Shown here in pieces: positions 30,214-37,849 of a stretch of DNA of 58,683 bases (position 1 is the stretch's first letter; every line of letters starts with the position of its first letter). The position numbers were made by a program, and so were the translations under genes. Source of the stretch: Gammaproteobacteria bacterium. GTDB lineage: Bacteria > Pseudomonadota > Gammaproteobacteria > Steroidobacterales > PWYM01. The notes under the pieces were generated by a model, which saw only the letters and a program-made list of their open reading frames with translations, ran no database searches and was not told the DNA's origin. Location of the stretch: assembly GCA_007127715.1 (NCBI GenBank), contig SKYU01000015.1, positions 1 to 58,683 of the forward strand, written 5' to 3'.

Positions 30214-31291
30214 GGCCGCGACGCTCCGGGGTCAGCGCCCCAAGCAGCCGGTCGTTCTGCTCCGGCGTGCCGATACTGATCCGCAGACAGCCGGGTGGCA
30301 GGTCCGGATCGGCCGAGAAGTCACGAATCAGGATGCCGCGGGCGCGGGCGGCGGCGACCAGCTGCCCTGGCGCATCGGTCTCGATCAGCAGGAAATTGGC
30401 CTCCGACGGATGGACCCGCCGGATCTGCGGCATGCCCTCCAGGGCCTCGGCCACGCGTGCACGCTCCCGGCGCAGGCCCTCGATACGTTCGCGCATCAAG
30501 GCGACGGTATCGCCCTCCAGGCTCGCCAGCGCGGCCTCCAGGGACGGGGTCGGCAGGCCATAGGGGGGAAGCATACGGGTCAGCAGTTCGACCACGGCCG
30601 GGGCTGCCAGCAGGCTGCCGCAGCGGGCACCTGCCAGGCCGTGGGCCTTGCTCAGCGTCCGGAGCACCACCAGGTGCGGATGCCGCTCGCGAAGCTCGAG
30701 CAGGCTGCCGCTGGCGACGAAGTCGACGTAGGCCTCGTCCAGCACCACCAGACCGCGCTCCGCCATGGCCACGCAGACCCGCTCGACGGCGTCGCGGTCG
30801 AGGACATTGCCGGTCGGATTGTTGGGCGAGCACAGGAACACGAGTTTCACGGGACCGTTGTTCGCCGCCGCGATCACCCCGGCGTCATCCAGCGCGAAGC
30901 CGTGCTCCCGCTGCAGCGGAACCCGGCGCACTCCGGCACCCTGGATGGCGGCATAGACCTGGTACATGCCGAAGGTCGGCGGGCAGATCAGGATGTCGTC
31001 CTGGCCCGGTACGCAGAATCCGCGTACCAGCAGGTCGATCGCCTCGCTGCTGCCGCGGGTGATCAGCAGGCTGTCGGGGGTCACGCCATAATGACTCGCC
31101 AGGCGTTCGGTCAGCGCCAAGGGACGGGGCGGCGGGTAGATGTTGAGGCCACGCTCGGAATCGTCGTTGGGTGCCCGCCACGGGGCCTCGTTGGCATTGA
31201 GCCGCACACAGTCAGGTTCATAGCCTGCTGGACGATAGGCCTCCAGCCGACGCAGTTCGGGTCGTGCCAGGGCGAGAAAATCGATCGTCAT
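30206..31291 (-). CDS. hisC: Histidinol-phosphate aminotransferase
   Basis: RLNANEAP, RGSSEAID, PPTFGMY, CSPNNPTG, DEAY, LRTLSKAHGLAGARCG. Confidence 0.96.
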   Translation of the reverse strand: MTIDFLALARPELRRLEAYRPAGYEPDCVRLNANEAPWRAPNDDSERGLNIYPPPRPLALTERLASHYGVTPDSLLITRGSSEAIDLLVRGFCVPGQDDILICPPTFGMYQVYAAIQGAGVRRVPLQREHGFALDDAGVIAAANNGPVKLVFLCSPNNPTGNVLDRDAVERVCVAMAERGLVVLDEAYVDFVASGSLLELRERHPHLVVLRTLSKAHGLAGARCGSLLAAPAVVELLTRMLPPYGLPTPSLEAALASLEGDTVALMRERIEGLRRERARVAEALEGMPQIRRVHPSEANFLLIETDAPGQLVAAARARGILIRDFSADPDLPPGCLRISIGTPEQNDRLLGALTPERRGHG

Positions 31292-32601
31292 GCCACGGTC
31301 CGTCGGCGCAGGGCGTCCAGGCGCAGGCTGATGGCCTCACCGTGGGCATCGAGGCCTTCAAGCTCGGCCAGACGACGGCCCACCGGGCCGATGTCCGTCA
31401 GGCCGTCCGGGGTGAGCTCCTGGACCGTCATCTGACGCAGGAACGCCGTCAGCGAGAGTCCGCTGTAGGTTCTCGCGAACCCGTAGGTCGGCAGTACGTG
31501 ATTGGTGCCGCTGCAGTAGTCACCGATCGATTCGGGCGTCCACGGCCCGAGGAACACCGAGCCGGCATGGCTGATCGAATCCAGCCAGCGGCGCGGCTGA
31601 TCGACCTGGACAATGAGGTGCTCGGGGGCATAGCGGTTGCTCACCTCGAGCGCCTCGGCCACCGAGTCGACCACGATCAGTGCACTGTGCTCCAGGGCCT
31701 TGCCGGCGGTGTCGCGCCTGCCCAGTCTCGCGAGCTGTCGTGTCACCTCGGCGGCCACCCGCTCGGCGATGGCGGCGCTCGTGGCCACCAGGATCACCTG
31801 GGAGTCCGGGCCATGTTCGGCCTGCGAGAGCAGATCGGAGGCCACGAAGGCCGGGTCGGCGGTGTGGTCTGCGATGACCAGCACCTCGGAGGGCCCCGCC
31901 GGCATGTCCAGGGCGGCGCCGCGGGGGTCTTCCGCCACCGCTGTCTTGGCTGCGGTCACCCACGCATTTCCTGGGCCGAAGATCTTGTCAACCTTGGGGA
32001 CGGTTTCGGTCCCGAAGGCCATGGCGGCAACCGCCTGTGCGCCGCCGACCTTGAATACCTGCTCCACGCCGCAGCGCCGCGCCACGGCCAGCACCGCCGG
32101 ATCGGCGCGCCCCTCCCGGTCCGGTGGCGTGCAGATGATCCGCACCGGGCAGCCCGCCAGTCCGGCGGGCACAGCCAGCATGATGGCGGTGGAGGGCAGT
32201 GGCGCACTGCCGGCGGGCACGTACAGGCCGACGGCGGCGAGCGGCCGGTTGACGCGCTGGCAGCGCACGCCAGGCGAGGTTTCAAGGTCGATCTCGGCCG
32301 GATGCTGCGCAGCATGGAACTTGCGCACGTTGTCGATCGCGCGGTCGATGGCCGCCAGCGCATCGGCCGGCAGACGCGACTCCGCGGCCGAGAGCTCGGC
32401 ATCCTCAACCCGTAACCCCTGCAGCTCGACCCGGTCGAAACGGGCGGTGAACTCCAGAAGTGCCGCGTCGCCGCGCTCACGCACCTCGGAAATGATCGTA
32501 TCGACCTGCCGGCGCAGTTCGCCGGAGATGCGGTTGGCCGGACGCTCGAGCAGCGCATCGCGCGCCTGCTCGGACAACCGGTTCCAGTGAGTGATCTTCA
32601 T
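31288..32601 (-). CDS. hisD: Histidinol dehydrogenase
   Basis: VGLYVPAG, GGAQAVAAMAFG, IFGPGN, DMPAGPSE, DLLSQAEH, YAPEHL, GDYCSGTNHVLPT. Confidence 0.97.
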   Translation of the reverse strand: MKITHWNRLSEQARDALLERPANRISGELRRQVDTIISEVRERGDAALLEFTARFDRVELQGLRVEDAELSAAESRLPADALAAIDRAIDNVRKFHAAQHPAEIDLETSPGVRCQRVNRPLAAVGLYVPAGSAPLPSTAIMLAVPAGLAGCPVRIICTPPDREGRADPAVLAVARRCGVEQVFKVGGAQAVAAMAFGTETVPKVDKIFGPGNAWVTAAKTAVAEDPRGAALDMPAGPSEVLVIADHTADPAFVASDLLSQAEHGPDSQVILVATSAAIAERVAAEVTRQLARLGRRDTAGKALEHSALIVVDSVAEALEVSNRYAPEHLIVQVDQPRRWLDSISHAGSVFLGPWTPESIGDYCSGTNHVLPTYGFARTYSGLSLTAFLRQMTVQELTPDGLTDIGPVGRRLAELEGLDAHGEAISLRLDALRRRTVA

Positions 32602-32608
32602 GGTGACC

Positions 32609-33514
32609 TCAGTAGAGCATTTTCTCGACCGGCAACACGAGCATGGAGCTGGCGCCGGCCTGCTTGAGCTCCTCCAGTGTTTCCCAGAAGACATTTTCGC
32701 GGCACACGGCATGGATGGCCACCTTGTCCTCGCGTCCCTCAAGTGGCATGACGGTGGGGGCCTCGGAGCCGGGCAGCAGCCGCGTGATCTCGGCGAGCGC
32801 GGCACGCGGTGCATGCAGCATGATGTATTTGCTCTCGCTGACCTGGATGACACCATCGATCCGCTTCTTGAGACGCTCCATCCATTCGGCCTTTCCGGCC
32901 GGGACTGTTTTGGGCGTCTGGATGAGCGATGACACGCTGTCCAGGATGGTGTCCTCCTCGCGCAGGTGGTTGGCCCGGAGCGTCCCGCCCGTCGAGACCA
33001 GGTCGCAGATGACGTCGGCCCGGCCGAGTTTGGGGGCGATTTCCACGGCACCGGAGAATTCCACCACGCTGGCCTCAAGCCCCTGCCGGCGCAGGAACTC
33101 GCCGACGATATGCGGATAGCTGGTGGCGATGCGCCGGCCGGCGAGATCCGCAGGGCCCTGCCAGGGCATGTCCTCGGGCACCGCGAAGGACAGGCGACAG
33201 TGGCCGAAATCGAGTTTGCGCACAATGGTGAAAGGTGCCGTGTCCCCGGCGGCCGCAAAAGCCAGCCGTTTCTCCTCCAGCACGTTGGCACCGACAATGC
33301 CGAGATCGCAGACGTCGTCCCGCACCAGCCCCGGAATATCGTCGTCACGCACCAGCAGGACGTCGATCGGCAGGTTCTCGCCATAGCAGATCAACTGATC
33401 GCGGCCCTTGCTGTACTTCAGACCGCAGCGTGCGAGCAGGTCCAGAGAGTGCTCGGTCAGCCGCCCGGATTTCTGTACGGCGATCTTGATGCGGTCGGGA
33501 TTCTGTGGGCTCAT
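32609..33514 (-). CDS. hisG: ATP phosphoribosyltransferase, long form
   Basis: IAVQKSGRL, VRDDDIP, DLGIVG, RIATSYP, GAVEIAP, DLVSTGGTL, plus C-terminal regulatory domain. Confidence 0.97.
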   Translation of the reverse strand: MSPQNPDRIKIAVQKSGRLTEHSLDLLARCGLKYSKGRDQLICYGENLPIDVLLVRDDDIPGLVRDDVCDLGIVGANVLEEKRLAFAAAGDTAPFTIVRKLDFGHCRLSFAVPEDMPWQGPADLAGRRIATSYPHIVGEFLRRQGLEASVVEFSGAVEIAPKLGRADVICDLVSTGGTLRANHLREEDTILDSVSSLIQTPKTVPAGKAEWMERLKKRIDGVIQVSESKYIMLHAPRAALAEITRLLPGSEAPTVMPLEGREDKVAIHAVCRENVFWETLEELKQAGASSMLVLPVEKMLY

Positions 33515-33840
33515 GAGGCGGCATCTTCCTTGGGGCGTTCTGGCAGGCGGGACAGGGCGAGGGCATAGCCTCCGTTCCCGTCGGCGAGGAAACGGGCGAT
33601 CCGGCCGATGGTGGTGACGCTGACGCCGGTCTCGACACTGATTTTCCGATAGGGCCGGCCTGCGGCCAGCAGTGGCACGACCGACCAGCGGTCGGCCATG
33701 GCCTGGAGTTCGGCCGGAGTCAGCAGATCACGGAAGAAACGTCGGCATTCTCCGGCGTCGCGCAGCTGGAGAATGGCTTCGTAGAGGGCCTGCTCGGCGG
33801 CGGCGTCCTGCGCCGGTGTGGTGGTGCGGCGGTCCTTCAT
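33511..33840 (-). CDS. TrpR-like (YerC/YecD, HisR-type) repressor heading the his operon
   Basis: FFRDLLTPAELQAMADRW..PYRKISVETGVSVTTIGRIARFL..GNGGY; ATGA overlap with hisG. Confidence 0.9.
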   Translation of the reverse strand: MKDRRTTTPAQDAAAEQALYEAILQLRDAGECRRFFRDLLTPAELQAMADRWSVVPLLAAGRPYRKISVETGVSVTTIGRIARFLADGNGGYALALSRLPERPKEDAAS

Positions 33841-33921: not shown

Positions 33922-33951
33922 TTGACGCTCCGGTCACAGGCACCATAGACT
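33922..33951 (+). promoter_or_regulatory. Putative sigma70 promoter of the SAM riboswitch/met operon
   Basis: TTGACG-18bp-TAGACT; predicted start about 33958, immediately before riboswitch P1. Confidence 0.6.
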
Positions 33952-33959
33952 CGCCGGCG

Positions 33960-34078
33960 CTCATCGAGACCGGCTGAGGGACAGGCCCAGCGACGCCGGG
34001 GCAACCATCGGGCCTCACCAGCCTGACAAGGTGCCAACTCCTGCGCAGGCGGCCACAAGGCCGACGGCGACAGATGAG
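33960..34078 (+). ncRNA. SAM-I (S-box) riboswitch
   Basis: P1 CTCATC/GATGAG; P2 kink-turn CCGGCTGAGGGACAGGCCCAGCGACGCCGG; GGCAACC; AAGGTGCCAACTCC; upstream of met biosynthesis genes. Confidence 0.93.
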
Positions 34079-34218
34079 GGTCGAGCGGCGACCGGCTGAC
34101 GCAGGCCGGGCAGGCGCGTGACATCCTCCCGGCCGACAGTTCCCGCCGGACGCTTCGATGAGCAGGCGCCGCCCCCTGGGGTGCGGACAGACACAGGCTC
34201 GCTGGAGCGTCACAACAC

Positions 34219-37849
<3,631 letters not shown>

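What the first reader, a model, noticed from the sequence alone, without database searches (positions are those of the whole stretch)
33959..34218. SAM-I riboswitch with a readable translational switch that uses the 5' strand of P1
Seen: there is no U-tract terminator between the aptamer and metB. The 5' P1 strand GCTCATCGAG (33959-33968) can form a 10-bp helix with TTCGATGAGC (34154-34163), competing with P1. GACGCTTC (34149-34156) can form an 8-bp helix with GGAGCGTC (34204-34211), which contains the likely SD. The two alternative helices overlap at 34154-34156. Model (inference): with SAM, P1 forms and the anti-SD covers the SD (OFF); without SAM, the long-range helix frees the SD (ON). Known: most SAM-I platforms switch through the 3' P1 strand and a terminator, and SAM-I is uncommon in gammaproteobacteria apart from Xanthomonas-like cases.
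Basis: partly seen in the sequence, partly recalled or inferred. Interest (0 to 1): 0.66.

Follow-up and report, generated by a model that had tools for sequence, protein, structure and literature searches.

The report
SAM riboswitch that hides metB's ribosome site
This is a genuine SAM-sensing RNA switch in front of a methionine operon that most likely blocks translation by a three-strand swap using the front strand of its closing helix, a design shared by many relatives and apparently by the studied Xanthomonas switch, so it is a clear new example, not a new kind.

Summary
Rfam places a SAM-I aptamer at 33958-34080 (69 bits, cut-off 44.4), directly after a promoter-like site and 138 nt before a metB-metY-metX operon. 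No terminator lies in between.

The SD-masking helix is longer than stated: 34149-34163 pairs with 34197-34211. The whole strand 34154-63 is therefore shared with the long-range helix to the 5' P1 strand, which also extends by 33970-74 x 34145-49.

Folding favours the long-range (ON) fold by about 5 kcal/mol over the P1-closed fold, in which the SD is fully paired.

Comparison with relatives supports the model:
- A CGAUGAG-like copy of the 3' P1 strand sits next to or inside the anti-SD in most of 110 related leaders (54 clear cases against about 3 expected).
- The 3' P1 strand has no comparably strong partner.
- One double compensatory change keeps the SD hairpin in sister species.
- Xanthomonas-type leaders changed P1 and the platform motif together.

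The published Xanthomonas campestris SAM-I switch, shown experimentally to act on translation, carries the same complementarity.

It is a new member of a known kind, of moderate interest. No experiment exists for this RNA.

The parts
33922..33951 (+). Promoter-like site: TTGACG, 18-nt spacer, TAGACT. It would start the transcript at about 33957-33959, at the first bases of P1.
   Evidence: 1 site found against 0.1 expected. The TTGACG and CATA(A/G)ACT blocks are conserved in sister species in the alignment.
33958..34080 (+). SAM-I (S-box) aptamer. P1 is 33960-33965 paired with 34073-34078, plus the closing pair C33958-G34080.
   Evidence: RF00162, 69 bits (gathering score 44.4), full model 1-108. 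It is the only SAM-I in the genome.
33959..33974 (+). Switching strand A: the 5' strand of P1, J1/2 (GAG) and the first bases of P2. It pairs either with the 3' P1 strand or with platform strand X.
   Evidence: ON duplex -24.5 kcal/mol, p = 0.006, rank 1 of 112 aptamer windows.
34073..34081 (+). 3' strand of P1 (GAUGAGGG, then U). In the ligand-free fold its GAGGGU pairs with the CCUCC block.
34123..34130 (+). Conserved pyrimidine block AUCCUCCC. It is the predicted decoy for the freed 3' P1 strand. It is not the SD's partner in the platform-only ensemble.
   Evidence: probability 0.73 of pairing with the 3' P1 region in the free ensemble, and 0.00 with the SD in the platform-only ensemble. 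A similar block is present in most relatives.
34145..34163 (+). Platform strand X (GCCGGACGCUUCGAUGAGC): the anti-SD, which is also a copy of the 3' P1 strand. 34154-63 and 34145-49 pair with strand A (ON). 34149-63 pairs with the SD arm (OFF).
   Evidence: The motif YCGAUGRG is conserved in relatives.
34197..34211 (+). SD arm GCUCGCUGGAGCGUC, holding the Shine-Dalgarno GGAG (34204-34207). It is paired with X when the aptamer is closed.
   Evidence: The pair A34161-U34199 becomes G-C in two sister species.
34219..35406 (+). metB, cystathionine gamma-synthase, the first gene under control.
   Evidence: TIGR02080, 601.9 bits (cut-off 504.55).
35403..36734 (+). metY-type O-acetylhomoserine sulfhydrylase. 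Its start overlaps the metB stop.
   Evidence: TIGR01326, 688.8 bits (cut-off 495.1).
36731..37849 (+). metX, homoserine O-acetyltransferase. Its start overlaps the metY stop.
   Evidence: NF001209, 406.5 bits (cut-off 331).

Best explanation
This is a SAM-I riboswitch that represses translation of the metB-metY-metX operon through a three-strand exchange. Platform strand X (34145-34163) carries the anti-SD and a copy of the 3' P1 strand.

Low SAM (inferred). X pairs with the 5' end of the mRNA: the P1 5' strand, J1/2 and the start of P2 (33959-33974). The freed 3' P1 strand (GAGGGU) pairs with the CCUCC block at 34123-34130. The SD (GGAG, 34204-34207) sits in only a weak local hairpin, and ribosomes can initiate.

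High SAM (inferred). SAM locks P1 and J1/2 in the aptamer and X is released. X then forms a 15-position hairpin with 34197-34211 that buries the SD.

X lies 75-85 nt after the aptamer, so P1 can form first during transcription. The switch is therefore probably thermodynamic and reversible, with the unpaired J1/2 bases as the likely nucleation point for strand displacement (inferred).

What is shown: the aptamer match, the absence of a terminator, the complementarities, their conservation, and the folding energetics. What is not shown for this RNA: SAM binding, the two folds, and the effect on translation.
For: - The aptamer is a full SAM-I match, with no terminator-like site after it.
- Duplex energies are P1 -13.6, ON -24.5 and OFF -22.8 kcal/mol.
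- Constrained MFEs are -125.3 with P1 enforced (this gives the aptamer plus the SD hairpin) and -130.4 with the ON helix enforced. The gap of about 5 kcal/mol is one that ligand binding could plausibly close.
- In the ensembles, SD unpaired probability is 0.00 for the platform alone and 0.26 for the free full length. The 5' strand pairs with the platform at 0.85.
- Across 45 metB leaders, SD unpaired probability is 0.09 against 0.23 (Wilcoxon p = 2e-8). The 5' strand pairs with the platform at 0.48 and with the 3' P1 strand at 0.07.
- The 5' window is the best or among the three best of about 110 aptamer windows in 24 of 45 leaders, while the 3' P1 window shows no signal.
- Taking one leader per family, Fisher's combined p is 1.2e-4 for the 5' strand and 0.067 for the 3' strand.
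- 54 of 110 unique leaders have a CGAUG anchor with at least 6 of 9 paired flanking positions, against about 3 expected.
- The SD's partner lies within X or 3-8 nt before it in about 35 of 45 leaders.
- Covariation in the OFF helix: A34161-U34199 becomes G-C in two sister species, and the same X base keeps pairing with the invariant U33961.
- Covariation in the ON helix: CAUCAAGA goes with UCUUGAU in L029, and CCAUCG goes with CGAUGG in Xanthomonas-type leaders.
- The X. campestris SAM-I riboswitch, which has CCAUCGAG at its 5' end and CUCGAUGG in its platform, was shown by reporters to act mainly on translation. GUS activity fell by about 98% in the translational fusion and about 24% in the transcriptional fusion (PMC7270179).
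- RNA-seq contigs run from the platform into metB: 34069-34334 and 34139-34274.
Against: - There is no experimental evidence for this RNA.
- Whole-leader folding z-scores are not significant (-0.9 and -0.3).
- The SD hairpin alone is within chance for a 70% G+C leader (p = 0.11).
- The unconstrained MFE depends on the chosen ends. One nearly iso-energetic fold uses a different aptamer segment against the SD arm.
- The 5' strand is almost invariant, so the ON helix shows conservation rather than covariation within the genus.
- Some relatives lack the motif or use a terminator instead (L022, L012).
- In sister species L023 the SD is predicted to pair with an upstream UUUCCUCG strand, not X.
- In Xanthomonas-type leaders ViennaRNA keeps the masking hairpin even in the full-length fold.
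- The sequences compared are related to one another, so the pooled p-values overstate independence.
Confidence: 0.7

Rival explanations
1. The main output is transcriptional. SAM binding leads to Rho-dependent termination or faster mRNA decay in the leader or early metB, and SD masking is secondary or irrelevant.
For: - There is no intrinsic terminator, so Rho is the only transcriptional route left.
- Untranslated leaders are generally exposed to Rho (established knowledge).
- The X. campestris study saw a small (about 24%) SAM effect on a transcriptional fusion and could not exclude Rho (PMC7270179).
Against: - The platform is as rich in G (49) as in C (51) and strongly structured, which is unlike a typical rut site.
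- The conserved features are an SD-masking hairpin and its competitor.
- The closest studied relative acts mainly on translation.
- RNA contigs cross from the leader into metB, although this is also expected of an ON state.
Confidence: 0.12
2. A classical 3'-strand switch. The conserved CCUCC block (34123-34130) is the real anti-SD. Without SAM it is held by the 3' P1 strand (GAGGGU), and with SAM it is released to pair with GGAG.
For: - The CCUCC-type block is conserved about 40-55 nt after the aptamer in most relatives.
- It pairs with the 3' P1 region in the free ensembles: 0.73 in the window, 0.5-0.97 in many others.
- 34118-34134 can form a -16.2 kcal/mol duplex with 34200-34214, including CUCC with GGAG.
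- In L023 the SD's predicted partner is such a block.
Against: - In the platform-only ensembles of the window and most relatives this block pairs with the SD at probability 0.00.
- The SD's partner is X or the strand just before X.
- The X hairpin is more stable (-22.8 kcal/mol).
- The flanking GUGAC/GUCAC pairing is absent in sister species L020 (sequence).
- The 3' P1 window shows no family-wide excess of complementarity.
Confidence: 0.1
3. The complementarity between the 5' strand and X is fortuitous, or X is conserved for another reason, for example as a binding site for a tRNA or protein as proposed for the Xanthomonas platform. The SD hairpin would then be opened by something other than the aptamer's 5' strand.
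For: - The X. campestris platform is reported to bind uncharged initiator tRNA at its anti-SD (PMC7270179).
- Single-sequence statistics in a G+C-rich leader are modest.
- The ON helix shows no double-sided changes within the genus.
Against: - The motif tracks changes in the 5' strand between lineages: CCAUCG with CGAUGG, and CAUCAAGA with UCUUGAU.
- It is about 18-fold enriched over shuffles.
- It lies next to or within the anti-SD in most leaders.
- The helix extends into J1/2 and P2, which a mere copy of the 3' P1 strand would not explain.
Confidence: 0.06

Closest known systems
SAM-I(Xcc), the SAM-I riboswitch of the Xanthomonas campestris met operon (Tang et al. 2020, Nat Commun 11:2794, PMC7270179; Microbiology 2018, PMC6230763)
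   Same: - Both have a SAM-I aptamer at the 5' end of a methionine-biosynthesis operon in a G+C-rich gammaproteobacterium, with no intrinsic terminator.
- In both, the translation-initiation region sits in a platform hairpin. In Xcc regulation was shown to be mainly translational.
- The published primer sequences show the same feature found here. The Xcc platform has CUCGAUGG (its 'anti-AUG' AUGGC is part of it), complementary to the aptamer's 5' CCAUCGAG.
- Xanthomonas-like genomes L193-L195 show the same complementarity.
   Different: - In Xcc the shared strand masks the start codon, and a separate short hairpin masks the SD. That hairpin is reported to bind uncharged initiator tRNA.
- Here the shared strand is itself the anti-SD, and nothing suggests tRNA sensing.
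- The first gene is metA/metX in Xcc and metB here.
- The text available to me does not say which strand the Xcc anti-AUG pairs with when SAM is absent (the figure could not be seen). Whether the 5'-strand pairing is already published is therefore unresolved.
Classical SAM-I (S-box) riboswitches of Firmicutes (for example B. subtilis yitJ and metI)
   Same: Same aptamer family (RF00162), same ligand logic (SAM stabilises P1 and turns genes off), and the same kind of regulated genes.
   Different: Those switch through the 3' P1 strand, which joins an antiterminator that competes with an intrinsic terminator under kinetic, co-transcriptional control (review PMC5049679). Here there is no terminator. 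The strand with a strong alternative partner is the 5' strand, and the output is SD masking.
P1-regulated translational riboswitches with an anti-SD and an anti-anti-SD (for example the E. coli thiM TPP riboswitch; from my own knowledge, not checked here)
   Same: The logic is the same three-element one: an anti-SD strand is held by part of the aptamer when the ligand is absent, and is released to mask the SD when the ligand closes P1.
   Different: The aptamer class and ligand differ. The aptamer element used here is the extreme 5' end of the mRNA (P1 5' strand, J1/2 and P2), a long-range partner 180-200 nt from X.

Membership tests
SAM-I riboswitch aptamer (Rfam RF00162, S-box) | The covariance model matches over its full length above the curated gathering score, covering the four-way junction P1-P4 and the conserved core nucleotides. 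| tested here: met
   69 bits against 44.4, model positions 1-108 of 108, E 4.5e-14. Clan competition kept SAM-I over SAM-IV and SAM-I/IV.
SAM-I riboswitch aptamer (Rfam RF00162, S-box) | Location in the 5' leader of a methionine or SAM metabolism gene, on the same strand. | tested here: met
   The aptamer lies 138 nt before metB-metY-metX. A promoter-like site lies directly upstream.
SAM-I riboswitch aptamer (Rfam RF00162, S-box) | Specific binding of S-adenosylmethionine. | not testable with these tools
   Needs in-line probing, ITC or equilibrium dialysis.
Translational (SD-sequestering) SAM-I of the Xanthomonas type | No intrinsic terminator between the aptamer and the start codon. | tested here: met
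   no + strand terminator-like site. The longest U run is 2.
Translational (SD-sequestering) SAM-I of the Xanthomonas type | The initiation region is paired in a platform hairpin when the aptamer is closed. | tested here: met
   SD unpaired probability is 0.00, in the hairpin 34149-63 x 34197-211. One compensatory pair change occurs in sister species.
Translational (SD-sequestering) SAM-I of the Xanthomonas type | A platform strand complementary to the aptamer's 5' P1/J1-2 strand. | tested here: met
   for the window. for Xcc and Xanthomonas-like genomes. for the wider family.
Translational (SD-sequestering) SAM-I of the Xanthomonas type | SAM represses translation much more than transcription. 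| not testable with these tools
   Needs paired translational and transcriptional reporters. Only weak RNA-contig evidence exists that transcripts run through the leader.
Translational (SD-sequestering) SAM-I of the Xanthomonas type | Binding of uncharged initiator tRNA to the anti-SD (reported for Xcc only). | not tested
   There is no sequence signature to test. The Xcc anti-SD hairpin (GAUCC...GGAU) has no counterpart here.
Terminator-type SAM-I (Firmicutes S-box) | An intrinsic terminator, and an antiterminator that uses the 3' P1 strand. | tested here: not met
   There is no terminator. The 3' P1 strand has only a 6-bp partner, which is unrelated to any terminator.

The most novel reading that the evidence does not exclude
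A whole gammaproteobacterial order (Woeseiaceae-like and allied families), together with Xanthomonadaceae, shares a SAM-I expression platform that has not been formally described. In it the extreme 5' end of the mRNA (P1 5' strand, J1/2 and P2) acts as the anti-anti-SD, and the initiation region has evolved to mimic that 5' end. Each strand of P1 has its own decoy in the platform (CGAUGAG for the 5' strand, CCUCC for the 3' strand). The result is a reversible, thermodynamically poised translational switch, instead of the kinetic 3'-strand switch taken as the rule for SAM-I.
Probability: 0.4. Interest if true: 0.5.

Novelty: new member of a known kind. Interest (0 to 1): 0.38.

Why it matters
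Almost everything known about how SAM-I riboswitches switch comes from terminator-type examples in Firmicutes, where the 3' P1 strand is exchanged during transcription. Only one translational SAM-I (Xanthomonas campestris) has been studied.

This locus and about a hundred relatives give a readable, conserved alternative. One platform strand has two partners: the mRNA's 5' end or the ribosome-binding site. That provides natural sequence variation for testing how a four-way-junction aptamer can drive a long-range, reversible strand swap.

It also suggests a simpler reading of the Xanthomonas 'anti-AUG' element, and it gives design rules for translational SAM sensors in G+C-rich bacteria. It does not reveal a new class of RNA or a new ligand.

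Tried and rejected
- **Whole-leader folding z-scores** were not significant at 70% G+C, so I dropped them as evidence.
- **The first genus alignment** mixed strands, because minus-strand loci are not re-oriented. I redid it.
- **A metagenome scan with MetB** found no relatives closer than 69%, so it added nothing for helices specific to the window.
- **The genus-level covariation count for the ON helix** was uninformative because the 5' strand is invariant. It gave 87.6% paired, against 26-58% when the partner was slid, with no double-sided changes.
- **The 3' P1 strand as the switching strand** showed no family-wide excess of complementarity.
- **The CCUCC block as anti-SD** is not supported by the platform-only ensembles.
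- **The fold pairing aptamer 33986-97 with the SD arm** is the unconstrained MFE for one choice of ends. I did not adopt it, because z is only -2.4 among 112 windows and there is no conservation.
- **The full X. campestris sequence** could not be rebuilt from the paper's primers, and the figure of the SAM-free fold could not be seen. Xanthomonas-like genomes L193-L195 served instead.
- **An inverted repeat in the trpR-like/metB intergenic region** was not found.
- **Earlier notes of this scan** held nothing bearing on this locus.

Full report
**What is there**

Rfam's covariance model for the SAM-I (S-box) riboswitch matches window 33958-34080 on the + strand over its whole length. The score is 69 bits against a gathering score of 44.4, E 4.5e-14. 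It is the only SAM-I in this 2.8-Mb draft genome.

A sigma-70-like site (TTGACG, 18 nt, TAGACT; 33922-33951) ends 6-8 nt before the aptamer. It is conserved in sister species. The 5' strand of P1 is therefore at, or within two bases of, the 5' end of the mRNA.

The first downstream ORF starts at ATG 34219 and is cystathionine gamma-synthase, metB (TIGR02080, 601.9 bits). It is followed by metY-type O-acetylhomoserine sulfhydrylase and by metX homoserine O-acetyltransferase, with overlapping stop and start codons. The upstream, divergent gene is a YerC/YecD TrpR-related protein.

The record titles of the nearest MetB loci, and the runs that hold this sequence, point to an uncultured soda-lake gammaproteobacterium. 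Its order includes Woeseiaceae-like genomes.

**Check of the observation**

No terminator-like site lies on the + strand between the aptamer and metB. The 138-nt platform has 15 U and no U run longer than two.

- The SD-masking helix is not 8 bp. It is a 15-position hairpin, 34149-34163 with 34197-34211, with one A.C mismatch and three G.U pairs, at -22.8 kcal/mol. It is the MFE of the platform alone and of the leader with P1 enforced. The competing helices therefore share all of 34154-34163, not three bases.
- The long-range helix continues past A33969 with 33970-33974 paired to 34145-34149, giving -24.5 kcal/mol. P1 itself is -13.6 kcal/mol.

Against 1000 dinucleotide shuffles of the platform, the 5'-strand duplex has p = 0.006. 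The SD-arm duplex has p = 0.11, and the SD is as buried in 4.7% of shuffles. In this 70% G+C leader the long-range helix stands out by itself, while the SD hairpin does not and needs comparative support. Whole-leader z-scores are uninformative.

**Energetics of the two states**

With P1 enforced, the leader folds into the four-way aptamer plus the SD hairpin (-125.3 kcal/mol). With the long-range helix enforced it reaches -130.4 kcal/mol. In that fold the 3' P1 strand (GAGGGU, 34076-81) pairs with AUCCUC (34123-28), and the SD sits in only a 4+3-bp hairpin. A gap of about 5 kcal/mol is of the size that ligand binding could close; this is my inference.

In partition-function terms, the SD is unpaired with probability 0.00 when the aptamer is taken out of play and 0.26 in the free full-length RNA. 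There the 5' P1 strand pairs with the platform at 0.85 and with its P1 partner at 0.00.

One caveat applies. With slightly different ends, a nearly iso-energetic fold pairs aptamer 33986-97 with the SD arm. That pairing has no comparative support.

**Relatives**

SAM-I is present in 33 of 61 genomes sampled from the same order, but in only 8 of 401 sampled across the class. Three of those eight belong to this order and three to one other family with Xanthomonas-like leaders.

I collected 45 unique leaders that directly precede metB, and 110 unique SAM-I leaders in all. The aptamer's 5' end, CUCAUCGAGACC, is nearly invariant. The platforms are mostly unalignable between families. Even so, most hold a YCGAUGRG motif, which is a copy of the 3' P1 strand, 28-62 nt before the start codon.

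Four tests bear on this.
1. **Sliding windows.** I slid 12-nt aptamer windows against each platform. The 5' window is the best of about 110 windows in 13 of 45 leaders and among the top three in 24. Its z is typically -2 to -5, while the 3' P1 window averages about -0.5.
2. **One leader per family.** Fisher's combined p is 1.2e-4 for the 5' strand and 0.067 for the 3' strand.
3. **Anchor and flanks.** I anchored on the five-base complement of CAUCG and scored only the nine flanking positions. 54 of 110 leaders have a site with at least 6 paired flanks, against about 3 expected from shuffles.
4. **Position of the anti-SD.** In platform-only ensembles, the strand that pairs with the SD overlaps this motif or lies 3-8 nt before it in about 35 of 45 leaders.

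Across the 45 leaders the SD is almost always buried when the aptamer is closed (mean unpaired probability 0.09). It opens in the free ensemble (0.23; Wilcoxon p = 2e-8). These sequences are related to one another, so the p-value overstates independence.

**Covariation**

Within the genus the ON helix is conserved but not covarying, because the 5' strand does not vary. 87.6% of cells are paired in a structure-blind MAFFT alignment, against 26-58% when the partner is slid.

Informative changes do exist.
- In the two closest species, window pair A34161-U34199 of the SD hairpin is G-C. The same X base then makes G.U instead of A-U with the invariant U33961, so both alternative helices survive.
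- In three other sister species, X is CCUCGAUG or UCUCGAUG and the SD arm is UAUCGAGG or CAUUGAGG. The ribosome-binding region is a near copy of the aptamer's 5' CAUCGAG, so one strand has two look-alike partners.
- In L029 the J1/2 base is A instead of G (CAUCAAGACCGG), and the platform has CCGGUCUUGAU. This change lies outside P1, so it cannot be explained by X simply copying the 3' P1 strand.
- In Xanthomonas-type leaders P1 reads CCAUCG with GAUGG, and the platform motif reads CUCGAUGG(C). Up to 13 of 14 positions pair.

**Variations and exceptions**

- In Woeseiaceae-type leaders the ON helix is GGGUUCCGAUGAG paired with CUCAUCGAGACC (11 bp, with one conserved A.C). The anti-SD just before it is also complementary to the aptamer's J3/4-P4 strand.
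- In Steroidobacteraceae-type leaders the helix is bulged.
- L012 carries a clear terminator instead of this platform. L022 has a 63-nt leader without the motif.
- In sister species L023 the SD is predicted to pair with an upstream UUUCCUCG strand, with X inside the loop.
- A pyrimidine block (CCUCC-like; window 34123-34130) is conserved about 40-55 nt after the aptamer. In free ensembles it pairs with the 3' P1 region (0.73 in the window), and it does not pair with the SD (0.00) in the platform-only ensembles of the window and most relatives where it is separate from the anti-SD. I read it as a decoy for the freed 3' strand, not as the anti-SD.

**Comparison with what is known**

Reviews describe P1-regulated riboswitches as switching through the 3' P1 strand (PMC5049679). 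All classical SAM-I examples use a terminator.

The exception is the X. campestris met-operon SAM-I. It lacks a terminator and represses a translational fusion by about 98%, against about 24% for a transcriptional one. Both its SD and its AUG sit in a platform hairpin, and in the SAM-free state the AUG is exposed (PMC7270179).

Its published primers give the 5' end GAGCCUCACCAUCGAGACC and the platform ...GCGAAGCUCGAUGGCCGAUCC...GCCAUG. The 'anti-AUG' AUGGC is thus part of CUCGAUGG, the exact complement of the 5' CCAUCGAG.

The text available to me does not state the partner of the anti-AUG in the SAM-free fold, and the figure is not held. I therefore cannot tell whether the 5'-strand pairing is already drawn there. 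ViennaRNA does not predict it for Xanthomonas-like leaders, where the masking hairpin is very strong.

Either way, the window's riboswitch is best filed as a member of this translational, Xanthomonas-type SAM-I group. The difference is that its shared strand is the anti-SD itself, not an anti-AUG. Nothing suggests the tRNA sensing reported for X. campestris.

**RNA evidence**

Public runs hold near-identical DNA from soda-lake and lake-water metagenomes. Two RNA libraries hold contigs that run from the platform into metB: 34069-34334 in X18 and 34139-34274 in a metatranscriptome.

This shows only that some transcripts pass through the leader. Depth is low, contigs have no direction, and DNA carry-over cannot be excluded. 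The strain variants seen carry one substitution in the leader (G34118C), which lies outside all the helices discussed.

**Verdict**

The feature is real. It is a lineage-wide design, not a peculiarity of this locus.

It is not a new kind of element. Its value is as a clean natural example, with a large comparative series, of a SAM-I platform that switches through the 5' P1 strand and acts on translation. Rho-dependent termination as the main output, and the CCUCC block as the true anti-SD, remain possible but less likely. Both are testable with the experiments listed under decisive next steps.

Noticed in passing
window 34123-34130, and the equivalent place in most related leaders (for example L067, L007, L020): A pyrimidine block (AUCCUCCC or CCCUCCC) is conserved about 40-55 nt after the aptamer. 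In ligand-free ensembles it pairs with the 3' P1 strand (GAGGG), not with the SD. This suggests each P1 strand has its own decoy in the platform.
   Followed up: partly
L067, L064, L099, L070, L007 (Woeseiaceae-type leaders), platform positions about 46-68: The anti-SD (CUUCGC or UCUCCGC) just before the CGAUGAG motif is also complementary to the aptamer's J3/4-P4 5' strand (CUCCUGCG...). One contiguous platform segment could therefore be held by two separate aptamer strands in the ON state.
   Followed up: partly
L012 (G040), platform about 115-140 nt after the aptamer: In the same order, one metB leader has a clear intrinsic terminator (GACCGGUGAGACGGUC followed by UUUUUUU) instead of the CGAUGAG motif. 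Transcriptional and translational SAM-I platforms therefore coexist among close families.
   Followed up: no
L035, L036, L039, L040, L042, L071 (Rudaea/Rhodanobacteraceae-type) and L043-L091 (Steroidobacteraceae-type): Here the SAM-I aptamer sits about 1.3 kb before metB, in front of another gene in the Xanthomonas-like operon order. In Rudaea-type leaders the platform is only about 60 nt long, and the SD region ACGAGACCG resembles the aptamer's 5' UCAAGACCG.
   Followed up: partly
L008, L011 (G014, G033): Two related metB leaders are 366-373 nt long between the aptamer and the start codon. That is far longer than the usual 100-140 nt, and the content of the extra sequence is unexplained.
   Followed up: no
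window 33511-33840 (- strand): A YerC/YecD TrpR-related protein gene (TIGR02531) is transcribed divergently from the riboswitch promoter and lies upstream of a histidinol dehydrogenase-containing ORF. Its regulatory role is unknown.
   Followed up: no
window 31288-33384 (- strand): A 698-aa ORF carries the histidinol dehydrogenase domain only at residues 286-689. The roughly 285-residue N-terminal extension may be a mis-called start or a fusion, for example with hisG.
   Followed up: no
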